Part shown: positions 39,690 to 39,870 of the stretch, in pieces
How positions within the stretch are numbered: position 1 is the first letter of the stretch
Layout of the letters: each line of letters opens with the position of its first letter
Origin: Pseudomonadales bacterium
Lineage (GTDB): Bacteria; Pseudomonadota; Gammaproteobacteria; Pseudomonadales; Azotimanducaceae
Direction: 5' to 3'
Length of the DNA: 64,000 nt
NCBI GenBank assembly: GCA_028281005.1
Contig: JANQKS010000026.1
Span: 5,300 to 69,299, forward strand
Position numbers and translations under genes: made by a program
The notes under the pieces: model-generated
Seen by the model: only the letters and a program-made list of their open reading frames with translations
What the model was told of the DNA's origin: nothing
Databases searched by the model: none

Positions 39690-39870
39690 GTCCTTCTCTC
39701 AGTGATACTCAAGCACAGTTGACAGGTACTGTCAGTGAGAGAGGACATGCACCCGTAGACTACGAATAATTCGACCCAAACACACGATGTTCACGGCTTT
39801 GGCTTCGAGTCTACAGGTGCGATTAAGCTCGTAGACGAATACTCAGGGCTTGCCGTTGCATCGGCTCACC
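39690..39870 (+). ncRNA. Candidate IS110 bridge (guide) RNA region in the left end
   Basis: Hairpin 39690-39746. Helix GTAGACT (39755-61) / AGTCTAC (39808-14) encloses CGACCCAAA (the target left half) and ACGGCTTTGG (reverse complement of the target right half). GAATACTCAGGGC (39837-49) matches the IS right end. Ends and transcription are not established. Confidence 0.35.

What the first reader, a model, noticed from the sequence alone, without database searches (positions are those of the whole stretch)
39690..39870. Left end of the IS carries segments matching both target halves and the IS right end: candidate programmable bridge RNA
Several short matches lie within the 260-bp non-coding left end:
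- CGACCCAAA (39772-39780) equals the top strand of the target left half plus the following As, as in c1 (37566-37574).
- About 20 nt downstream, ACGGCTTTGG (39793-39802) is the reverse complement of CCAAAGCCGT. That sequence matches the right flank AAGCCGT (41208-41214, 7/7) and c1 CCAAAGCGGT (37570-37579, 9/10).
- Both guide-like segments are enclosed by the helix GTAGACT (39755-61) / AGTCTAC (39808-14).
- Further on, GAATACTCAGGGC (39837-49) matches the IS right terminus GAATGACTCAGGGC (41191-41204).
- GATACTCA occurs at the extreme left terminus (39682-89) and again at 39704-11.

One guide identical to the target's left top strand, one complementary to its right half, and a second loop matching the donor ends is the published architecture of IS110/IS621 bridge RNAs. 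Here the specificity would be for the island repeat. That link would be worth confirming, and the element could be useful as a naturally programmed recombinase/guide pair.
Basis: partly seen in the sequence, partly recalled or inferred. Interest (0 to 1): 0.65.

Follow-up and report, generated by a model that had tools for sequence, protein, structure and literature searches.

The report
IS110 bridge RNA, broken recombinase
The non-coding left end of this insertion sequence encodes a typical IS110-type bridge RNA, a guide RNA that reads both the insertion site and the element's own ends. It is a new member of a kind described in 2024, and its recombinase gene is broken by a 2-base deletion.

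Summary
Window 39678-41208 is an IS110-group insertion sequence with a 259-nt left end and a 20-nt right end. It sits between CGACCC-GA and AGCCGT, at the end of one copy of a ~107-nt repeat.

Evidence for a bridge RNA comes from 79 related elements (44-82% protein identity):
- The left end folds into a 5' hairpin and two internal-loop modules. 97.7% of cells pair and 24 pairs show compensatory change.
- The first loop covaries with each element's own flanks. The 5' side has the sense of the left flank, and the 3' side is complementary to the right flank.
- The second loop matches the element's two ends. One further base covaries with the target, as the published 'handshake' guide does.
- A sigma-70 promoter forms only across the joined right and left ends.

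- The guides read a 14-nt motif shared with relatives, not the island repeat as such.
- The GATACTCA repeat is not supported.
- The recombinase carries a 2-nt deletion and the element is single-copy, so this copy is probably immobile.

No RNA data exist for this organism. Verdict: new member of a known kind, modest interest.

The parts
39670..39677 (+). Left target half CGACCC (39670-75) plus the target-derived core dinucleotide GA (39676-77). This is the cut end of repeat copy c2 (39569-39675).
   Evidence: In relatives the two bases before TATAG differ between copies of one element, so they belong to the flank.
39678..41208 (+). IS110-group insertion sequence: TATAG...GCGT plus the donor core GA (41207-08). 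GA flanks it on both sides, so each boundary is ambiguous by 2 nt.
   Evidence: Ends were defined from multi-copy relatives (Methylobacter luteus, Spongiihabitans) and from empty hairpin sites with GACCC-NNN-GCGG.
39678..39683 (+). TATAGA. It is the right-donor (RD) sequence TATAG and also the -10 hexamer of the junction promoter.
   Evidence: In 51 of 59 elements TTGACN lies exactly 18 nt upstream in the reconstructed RE-LE junction, with TGA immediately before TATAG.
39692..39744 (+). 5' stem-loop of the bridge RNA. Outer helix 39692-39700 with 39737-39744; inner helix 39718-25 with 39729-36.
   Evidence: Helices 1 and 2 show 11 pairs with compensatory change and 96-98% pairing. Single-sequence fold z = -2.1.
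39749..39820 (+). Target-binding loop module. Outer stem GCACC.GUAGACU.CGAA (39749-66) pairs with UUCG.AGUCUAC.GGUGC (39804-20). The capping hairpin is 39779-39791.
   Evidence: Helix 3 has 16 pairs, 7 of them compensatory. The centroid fold leaves both guide strands unpaired, z = -3.5.
39772..39779 (+). Left target guide CGACCC plus core-binding AA. It has the sense of the top strand of the left flank.
   Evidence: The LT block matches its own flank at 6.8 of 9 positions against 4.5 +/- 0.2 for permuted pairings; none of 5000 permutations reaches that value. MI peaks fall at 39771-39777.
39793..39802 (+). Right target guide ACGGCU (pairs with AGCCGT at 41209-14), then core-binding UU (39799-800), then GG (39801-02), which is complementary to the last two left-target bases.
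   Evidence: Columns 39794-39798 are complementary to the right flank in 33 to 58 of 58 insertions. Column 39797 shows four pair types (C-G 42, G-C 10, A-T 4, T-A 1).
39823..39893 (+). Donor-binding loop module. Outer stem UUAAGCUC pairs with GAGUUUAA, then CGAA (39836-39) with UUCG (39880-83). The capping hairpin is GCCG/CGGC (39852-65).
   Evidence: Helix 5: the pair at columns 146/207 is AU 14, UA 14, CG 13.
39841..39849 (+). Left donor guide block ACUCAGGGC, identical to the right end at 41196-41204. It ends 2 nt (GT, 41205-06) before the core; in relatives the first base of the 3-nt stretch CGT before the core also varies.
   Evidence: The distant relatives L067 and L068 carry CTCAGAG at both places.
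39870..39878 (+). Right donor guide CUAUA (pairs with TATAG at 39678-82), then core-binding UU, then handshake-type G39877.
   Evidence: The TATGG subfamily carries CCAUA. Column 39877 is complementary to the last left-target base in 53 of 58 insertions (G-C 43, U-A 10).
39897..39905 (+). CGCAUGUCC, a candidate closing helix with GGACAUGCA (39743-51) around both loop modules. It competes with the bases of the 5' hairpin and of the TBL stem.
   Evidence: 92% paired against 12-50% when slid, with 4 pairs compensatory. The helix is present in the MFE fold of 39690-39907.
39937..41188 (+). Recombinase gene (PF01548 and PF02371), split by a 2-nt deletion (one AG unit) at about 40325-40327. ORF1 is 39937-40359 and ORF2 is 40334-41188.
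41185..41190 (+). TTGACT, the -35 hexamer of the junction promoter. It works only when the right end is joined to the left end.
   Evidence: No resident promoter above chance lies upstream of the RNA in the integrated state.
41209..41214 (+). Right target half AGCCGT.
37566..37579 (+). Unoccupied paralogous site in repeat copy c1: CGACCC-AA-AGCGGT. It mismatches the guides at one position.

Best explanation
Window 39678-41208 is an IS110-group insertion sequence. Its 259-nt left end encodes a bridge RNA of about 200 nt, roughly 39690 to 39893-39905.

The RNA has a 5' stem-loop and two stem/internal-loop modules of the same build. [quoted passage not shown] G39877 can pair with the last left-target base after strand exchange.

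A recombinase with a DEDD/RuvC-like domain and a serine Tnp domain would use this RNA to join the circularised element (junction ...GCGT-GA-TATAG...) to CGACCC-NN-AGCCGT. The RNA and the recombinase would be driven mainly by a promoter that forms only across the joined ends.

Shown here: the RNA fold, the guide/flank and guide/end covariation, and the element's boundaries.
Inferred from the IS621 literature: transcription, RNA-protein assembly and strand-exchange chemistry.

This copy is probably inert, because a 2-nt deletion splits the recombinase gene and the element is single-copy.
For: Protein:
- PF01548 and PF02371 hits. NF033542 'IS110 family RNA-guided transposase' scores 153.9 bits against a cut-off of 140.
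- The alignment to IS621 (8wt6) shows D15, D105/D109 and S322 in register with D11, D102/D105 and S241. E65 is my assignment by motif; the printed alignment places it three columns off.

Structure:
- On 45 distinct left ends, 97.7% of cells pair against 31-43% when slid. 24 pairs carry compensatory change. None of 500 shuffles reaches the observed values.
- Centroid folds of the window sequence leave the guide strands in internal loops.

Target guides:
- The LT block matches its own flank at 6.8 of 9 positions against 4.5 +/- 0.2 when permuted (maximum 5.26 in 5000). The RT block scores 3.64 against 3.19 +/- 0.07.
- Column-by-column complementarity reaches up to 58 of 58, with up to four pair types.

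Donor guides:
- The RDG and the left terminus change together (CUAUA with TATAG; CCAUA with TATGG).
- The LDG block and the right end change together in L067 and L068 (CTCAGAG).

Handshake: column 39877 is complementary to the last left-target base in 53 of 58 insertions. IS621 shows the same DBL-HSG to tDNA P7 relation (PMC11208158).

Boundaries: empty hairpin sites carry exactly 3 nt between GACCC and GCGG in 30 of 31 cases.

Promoter: TTGACN-18 nt-TGA|TATAG[AT] in 51 of 59 reconstructed junctions.

End lengths match the IS110 group, with a long left end and a short right end (PMC11208160).
Against: - There are no RNA data for this organism. Only metagenomic DNA runs hold the locus. Metatranscriptome contigs over relatives' left ends are thin and could be DNA.
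- Rfam 15 has no family that matches.
- No circular junction was found.
- The left donor guide block is not adjacent to the core, unlike in IS621. In the window 2 nt (GT) are unmatched; across the family up to 3 nt (CGT) are.
- The TBL bases GG (39801-02) pair with the cognate target. In IS621 that arrangement blocks strand exchange.
- The recombinase is frameshifted.
Confidence: 0.9

Rival explanations
1. The left end is only a structured 5' leader or regulatory region of the recombinase mRNA, and its matches to the flanks are chance.
For: Within the window alone the 7- to 9-nt matches are not beyond chance. The 5' stem-loop of IS621 is reported to act as a transcriptional brake (bioRxiv 10.64898/2026.03.19.712850), so part of the left end may also be regulatory.
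Against: The variable loop positions track each element's own flanks across 39 guide classes, while the stems are kept by compensatory change. A leader alone has no reason to copy its insertion site.
Confidence: 0.03
2. The internal copies of flank sequence are relics of insertion, such as captured target DNA or nested ends, and not guides.
For: ACTCAGGGC occurs both in the left end and at the right end. In principle this could be a duplicated end.
Against: The segments sit at fixed positions of a conserved, covarying fold. One has the sense of the target and the other is antisense. They differ between relatives in step with the flanks. Captured DNA would not keep this register across 44-82% diverged elements.
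Confidence: 0.02
3. The bridge RNA is real in the family, but here it is a fossil. This copy is immobile and its RNA has no present function.
For: There is a 2-nt deletion relative to L001-L003. The same sequence appears in contigs of two independent runs. Depth of the IS equals that of its flanks (40.6 against 34.3), so no second, intact copy is evident. No resident promoter above chance lies upstream.
Against: All RNA helices and guide blocks are intact and match the insertion site at 7 of 8 and 8 of 8 positions (counting one G-U), so the decay is recent. A related recombinase supplied in trans could still act on it. This refines the best explanation and does not oppose it.
Confidence: 0.7
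4. The element belongs to the IS1111-attC group, and the repeat it cuts is an integron attC site.
For: Small cassette-like genes lie between two copies of a repeat with imperfect terminal inverted repeats. IS1111 members are known to target attC (reference 24 of PMC11208160).
Against: The long non-coding end is the left one, as in the IS110 group and not the IS1111 group. The repeat has GTT-like sequence at its 5' end and AAC-like sequence at its 3' end, the reverse of attC R''/R' (read). Only two copies occur in 64 kb. Relatives target REP-like hairpin doublets.
Confidence: 0.02

Closest known systems
IS621 (E. coli) and its bridge RNA (Durrant et al. 2024, PMC11208160; Hiraizumi et al. 2024, PMC11208158)
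   Same: - Recombinase with a DEDD domain and a serine Tnp domain.
- Long left end encoding an RNA with a 5' stem-loop, then the target-binding loop, then the donor-binding loop.
- The 5' strand of each loop has the sense of the top strand and includes the core. The 3' strand is complementary to the top strand and includes the core.
- A 2-nt core lies at both junctions.
- A DBL handshake base reads target position 7.
- The promoter is rebuilt across the RE-LE junction.
- Targets are repeated extragenic hairpins.
   Different: - The recombinase is only distantly related (phmmer E = 2.7e-7 to 8wt6) and larger (417 aa against 326).
- The core is GA in the donor and NA-biased in the target, not CT.
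- The left donor guide block stops 2 nt (up to 3 across the family) short of the core.
- The RTG strand continues across the core into the left target (GG against CC), a cognate pairing that locks IS621.
- A candidate closing helix surrounds both loops.
ISPpu10 (Pseudomonas putida), a structure-gated IS110 element (bioRxiv 10.64898/2026.03.19.712850)
   Same: An IS110-group element that inserts into REP hairpins. The hairpins often occur as convergent pairs, and a target DNA hairpin accompanies the guide match.
   Different: ISPpu10 lacks the 5' stem-loop, has a CT core, and its hairpin lies wholly in the left flank. In this family the insertion point lies between the loop and the 3' arm, so the hairpin is split by the element. 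In this window the hairpin is degenerate.
Unnamed IS110-family elements on Klebsiella, Enterobacter and Salmonella plasmids and in Burkholderia and Cupriavidus (e.g. NZ_CP100521.1 at 46101-47339; CP003090.1)
   Same: 52-66% protein identity. The left-end architecture, ACGAAUA motifs and CTCAGGG block are the same. The guides match their own flanks: LTG UUGUGCCAGA against flank TTGTGCCAGA, with a split hairpin TGTCCGCT/AGCGGACA.
   Different: Different guide sequences and hosts. Those copies have intact recombinase genes.

Membership tests
IS110 family, IS110 group (bridge-RNA elements) | Recombinase with an N-terminal DEDD RuvC-like domain and a C-terminal Tnp domain carrying a catalytic serine | tested here: met
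   PF01548 and PF02371. NF033542 scores 153.9 against a cut-off of 140. D15, D105/D109 and S322 align with IS621 residues; E65 is assigned by motif. The reading frame is broken by a 2-nt deletion.
IS110 family, IS110 group (bridge-RNA elements) | Long non-coding left end and short right end (the reverse holds in the IS1111 group) | tested here: met
   The left end is 259 nt (39678-39936). The right end is 20 nt after the stop codon (41189-41208). Criterion from PMC11208160.
IS110 family, IS110 group (bridge-RNA elements) | The left end folds into a conserved RNA with two internal loops | tested here: met
   Consensus structure on 45 sequences: 97.7% paired, 24 compensatory pairs, 0 of 500 shuffles reach the observed values.
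IS110 family, IS110 group (bridge-RNA elements) | The first loop covaries with the target: 5' strand in the sense of the left target plus core, 3' strand complementary to core plus right target | tested here: met
   In the window, CGACCCAA against CGACCCGA, and ACGGCUUU against GAAGCCGT (7 Watson-Crick pairs and 1 G-U).
IS110 family, IS110 group (bridge-RNA elements) | The second loop is complementary to the donor: the right end plus core, and core plus the left terminus | tested here: inconclusive
   The RDG criterion is met: CUAUAUU against (A/G)A-TATAG, and it changes together with the TATGG subfamily. The LDG block ACUCAGGGC equals the right end but stops 2 nt before the core. The 3 nt before the core do not covary. 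The donor is nearly invariant, so there is little variation to test.
IS110 family, IS110 group (bridge-RNA elements) | Core dinucleotide present at both junctions; no terminal inverted repeats | tested here: met
   GA lies at 39676-77 and at 41207-08. In relatives the right junction is always GA and the left one varies. No terminal inverted repeat is evident on reading the two ends.
IS110 family, IS110 group (bridge-RNA elements) | Promoter formed across the RE-LE junction of the circular form | tested here: met
   At sequence level only: TTGACT-18 nt-TGA-TATAGA, conserved in 51 of 59 relatives. No circle junction was observed.
IS110 family, IS110 group (bridge-RNA elements) | The RNA is expressed and binds the recombinase, and reprogramming the loops retargets recombination | not testable with these tools
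   There are no RNA runs for this organism. Metatranscriptome contigs over relatives are weak.
IS1111-attC group | Bridge/seek RNA in a long right end, subterminal inverted repeats, insertion in attC | tested here: not met
   The right end is 20 nt. The repeat lacks the attC R''/R' arrangement.

The most novel reading that the evidence does not exclude
This clade, which also includes widespread Klebsiella-plasmid elements, may be a mechanistic variant of bridge recombination. Four features differ from IS621:
- The left donor guide stops 2 nt short of the core (up to 3 across the family).
- The right target guide runs through the core into the left target, a pairing that locks IS621.
- The recombinase is about 90 residues longer.
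- The target is a hairpin split at its loop/3'-arm boundary.

Its natural insertions also carry a strand-asymmetric signature. The left junction keeps the target's core, which is variable (AA 21, GA 11, nine other dinucleotides). The right junction keeps the donor's GA in 56 of 56 insertions. This is the pattern expected from top-strand-only insertion, and it would be population-genomic support for that recently proposed pathway.
Probability: 0.3. Interest if true: 0.5.

Novelty: new member of a known kind. Interest (0 to 1): 0.3.

Why it matters
Bridge RNAs make IS110 recombinases programmable without double-strand breaks, and natural diversity is being mined for better editors. This locus adds a well-resolved clade of at least 39 guide classes, with recombinases distant from IS621 and ISCro4. 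Loop, core and handshake positions are mapped for the clade, and members occur on clinical Enterobacteriaceae plasmids.

The family's variable target core against an invariant donor core gives a natural read-out of which strand's product is inherited. That bears on the current debate between cut-and-paste and top-strand copy-and-paste.

For the window itself the practical value is small. The recombinase is broken, and the guides are ancestral, not tuned to the local island.

Tried and rejected
1. Rfam 15 scan of 39400-41400 at E <= 10 gave only chance miRNA and lncRNA hits. No bridge-RNA family is in the library.
2. A metagenome scan for a circular or tandem junction (ACTCAGGGCGTG-N0-4-TATAG) returned 66 loci. 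All were chance, except one true right end followed by ordinary flank. That used the only metagenome scan.
3. An exact-protein look-up of ORF2 found nothing on record.
4. RNA evidence was not obtained. Only DNA metagenome runs from coral hold the locus. Run X4 holds a ~88% relative as contigs. Metatranscriptome contigs over the Methylobacter-type left end are thin and ambiguous.
5. The attC/integron reading of the repeat was rejected on the R''/R' order and on copy number.
6. My first model had an AA core duplicated at both junctions and a target with 2 nt between CCC and GC. I rejected it after 30 of 31 empty hairpin sites showed 3 nt. It was replaced by a donor core GA and a target core N1N2.
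7. I looked for pairing partners for the last bases of the right end (GUGA) elsewhere in the RNA, namely the UUCAC before the RTG and the UCAC before the RDG. There was no covariation with the CATG or CCAG right-end variants.
8. The distant relatives L067, L068 and L073 were too divergent to place their guides reliably.

Full report
**What is there.** ORFs 39937-40359 and 40334-41188 carry PF01548 (DEDD_Tnp_IS110) and PF02371. Read through the frame break, the 417-aa product reaches NCBIfam NF033542, 'IS110 family RNA-guided transposase' (153.9 bits, cut-off 140). It aligns with the solved IS621 recombinase. D15, D105/D109 and S322 fall in register with IS621 D11, D102/D105 and S241. E65 is my assignment by motif, because the printed alignment places it three columns off.

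Upstream lie 259 non-coding bases, and only 20 follow the stop codon. That is the IS110-group layout and not the IS1111 layout (PMC11208160). The element interrupts the second of two copies of a ~107-nt direct repeat (37465-37571 and 39569-39675).

**The observation.** In the window alone they are not improbable. The test had to come from relatives.

**Relatives.** A protein-guided scan of one genome per species returned 79 loci at 44-82% identity. Most are gammaproteobacterial MAGs. Methylobacter luteus and a Spongiihabitans chromosome each have five copies. Comparing copies within one genome fixes the ends. Identity starts at TATAG on the left and stops after ...CTCAGGGCGTGA on the right.

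**RNA structure.** I aligned 45 distinct left ends (alignment A1). The RNAalifold consensus and an explicit pair count give these elements:
- a two-tier 5' hairpin (39692-39744);
- a module with outer stem GCACC.GUAGACU.CGAA / UUCG.AGUCUAC.GGUGC (39749-66 with 39804-20), a 12+12-nt internal loop and a capping hairpin;
- a second module of the same build (UUAAGCUC...CGAA / UUCG...GAGUUUAA, 39823-39893), capped by GCCG/CGGC.

97.7% of cells pair, against 31-43% when partners are slid. 24 of 50 pairs show compensatory change. None of 500 shuffles reaches the observed values.

Folding the window sequence alone gives the same picture, with both guide strands unpaired in the centroid. A further helix, GGACAUGCA (39743-51) with CGCAUGUCC (39897-905), may close both modules. 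It is 92% paired with 4 compensatory pairs.

**Target guides.** Mutual information between RNA columns and flank positions peaks on two diagonals. Columns 39771-39777 have the sense of flank positions -9 to -3. Columns 39797-39798 are complementary to the first bases of the right flank.

With one representative per guide class (39 classes), the left-target block matches its own flank at 6.8 of 9 positions. Permuted pairings give 4.5 +/- 0.2, with a maximum of 5.26 in 5000. The right-target block scores 3.64 of 6 against 3.19 +/- 0.07.

Column by column, 39798, 39797, 39796 and 39794 are complementary to the flank in 55, 57, 52 and 58 of 58 insertions. Column 39797 shows four pair types. [quoted passage not shown]

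**Where the crossover is.** I first read the junctions as a duplicated AA. A genome scan for GCTAATGACCC-N1-4-GCNG corrected this. In 30 of the 31 matches that sit in a hairpin context (ATGTCCGCT-AATGACCCAA-AGCGGACAT), exactly three bases lie between GACCC and GCGG. Matches with no hairpin context are spread over all four gap lengths. The unoccupied paralogue c1 in the window (CGACCC-AAA-GCGGT) and an empty site in L005 agree.

Occupied sites have two bases left of TATAG and GTG-A-A-GC on the right. Conservation of bases then gives a donor junction ...GCGT-GA-TATAG... and a target LT-N1N2-N3-RT cut after N2. In the window, GA lies at both junctions (39676-77 and 41207-08). The pre-insertion site was therefore CGACCC-GA-AGCCGTC, the same length as c1. 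The guides match it at CGACCC_A (7 of 8) and, on the RTG side, at 7 Watson-Crick pairs plus one G-U.

**Donor guides.**
- CUAUA-UU (39870-76) is complementary to the core plus TATAG. In the subfamily whose left end starts TATGG the RNA reads CCAUA.
- ACUCAGGGC (39841-49) equals the right end at 41196-41204. The distant elements L067 and L068 carry CTCAGAG at both places.
- Unlike in IS621, this block stops 2 nt (GT) before the core in the window. Across the family the three RNA positions facing CGT vary without tracking it. I could not find another partner for them.
- G39877, just 3' of the RDG, is complementary to the last left-target base in 53 of 58 insertions (G-C 43, U-A 10). This is the DBL handshake relation reported for IS621 (DBL-HSG P166 with tDNA P7).
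- The equivalent TBL bases GG (39801-02) are complementary to the cognate target (28 G-C and 10 U-A of 58 at 39801). In IS621 that arrangement traps the complex. About a quarter of relatives have A there, which would instead pair with the donor's T.

**Promoter.** Joining right end to left end gives TTGACT (41185-90), an 18-nt spacer, and TGA-TATAGA. That is a -35 hexamer plus an extended -10. The arrangement is kept in 51 of 59 relatives. In the integrated state no promoter above chance precedes the RNA. The predicted start, about 7 nt after the -10, falls at the foot of the 5' hairpin. This is read from sequence only.

**Junction asymmetry.** Across 59 distinct insertions the dinucleotide left of TATAG is AA 21, GA 11, TT 6, TA 5, AT 5, and others. 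The right junction is GA in 56 of 56. Top strands cut 3' of the core and exchanged would give this result: the target's core on the left and the donor's on the right. Two recent preprints argue that insertion is mainly top-strand. This is an inference. A blunt exchange or biased repair would look the same.

**State of this copy.** Compared with L001-L003, the gene lacks one AG of ...CCACAGAGTG... at about 40325-27. The deletion separates the DEDD domain from the serine domain. Contigs of two independent coral-metagenome runs carry the same sequence. The element's depth equals that of its flanks (40.6 against 34.3), so there is one copy and no visible helper. The RNA part is intact.

**What the target is.**
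- The nearest relatives (L001, L002) carry near-identical guide blocks but sit in unrelated flanks. The guides were therefore not shaped by this island's repeat.
- Family-wide, the target is the loop and 3' arm of REP-like hairpins. In Alphaproteobacteria these come as doublets about 15-20 nt apart.
- This parallels REP targeting by IS621 and ISPpu10.
- In the window the 5' arm is degenerate.
- The attC reading was rejected.

**Comparison and verdict.** Function and architecture match the published IS110-group bridge-RNA system on every feature I could test. One is inconclusive: the LDG is not adjacent to the core. Expression and activity could not be tested. The same architecture is present in 52-66% identical elements on Klebsiella and Burkholderia replicons. 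The result is a new member of a known kind.

Noticed in passing
L146-L265 (e.g. L178 with three copies, L156 and L211 with two each): A highly conserved hairpin ATGTCCGCT-AATGACCCAA-AGCGGACAT recurs in many Alpha-, Beta- and Gammaproteobacteria MAGs. It is usually preceded 15-20 nt upstream by a sister hairpin ATGTCCGCT-TTYGGGGGTAA-AGCGGACAT, whose loop resembles the inverted loop of the first. Together they form a REP/BIME-like doublet, and it is the family's natural target.
   Followed up: partly
window 37465-37571 and 39569-39675: Two copies of a ~107-nt repeat (96-99% identical) bracket a 2-kb, lower-GC block of small genes: AHSA1/SRPBCC, ArsR-type HTH, YCII, ABM monooxygenase and DUF6958. 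A 96-nt unitig of the repeat has about three times the flank depth in run X1, so a third copy may exist elsewhere in the genome. The repeat's ends are an imperfect inverted repeat (GGCCGCTTT ... AAAGCGGTC).
   Followed up: partly
window 36000-44000: GC content drops from about 57% to 48-53% across this stretch, which holds the repeat-bounded block, the IS and a Peptidase_MA-like gene (41214-42326, minus strand). It looks like an acquired islet.
   Followed up: no
L001-L079: left junctions against right junctions: The dinucleotide left of TATAG is variable (AA 21, GA 11, TT 6, and others). The right junction is GA in 56 of 56 insertions. This strand-asymmetric outcome is consistent with top-strand insertion.
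   Followed up: partly
L266 (NZ_CP100521.1 at 46101-47339) and about 260 other Klebsiella plasmid records: A 52%-identical IS110 element with the same bridge-RNA architecture sits next to relBE on IncFIB/IncHI1B plasmids. Its guides match its own flanks, TTGTGCCAGA | AGCGGACA.
   Followed up: partly
L074, L075 (Lysobacterales MAG CAXXKZ): Two copies of a related element have a recombinase gene that matches only residues 5-284 and lack the usual right end. The truncation is identical in both, which suggests a deleted derivative that was still mobilised or duplicated.
   Followed up: no
run X4 contig (13,099 nt, depth 124) over window 39677-39768: In another organism's run, a high-depth contig matches the 5' hairpin of the left end and then diverges exactly where the left target guide begins (TTACGGCCGAA...). 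It appears to be a related multi-copy element with a different guide.
   Followed up: no
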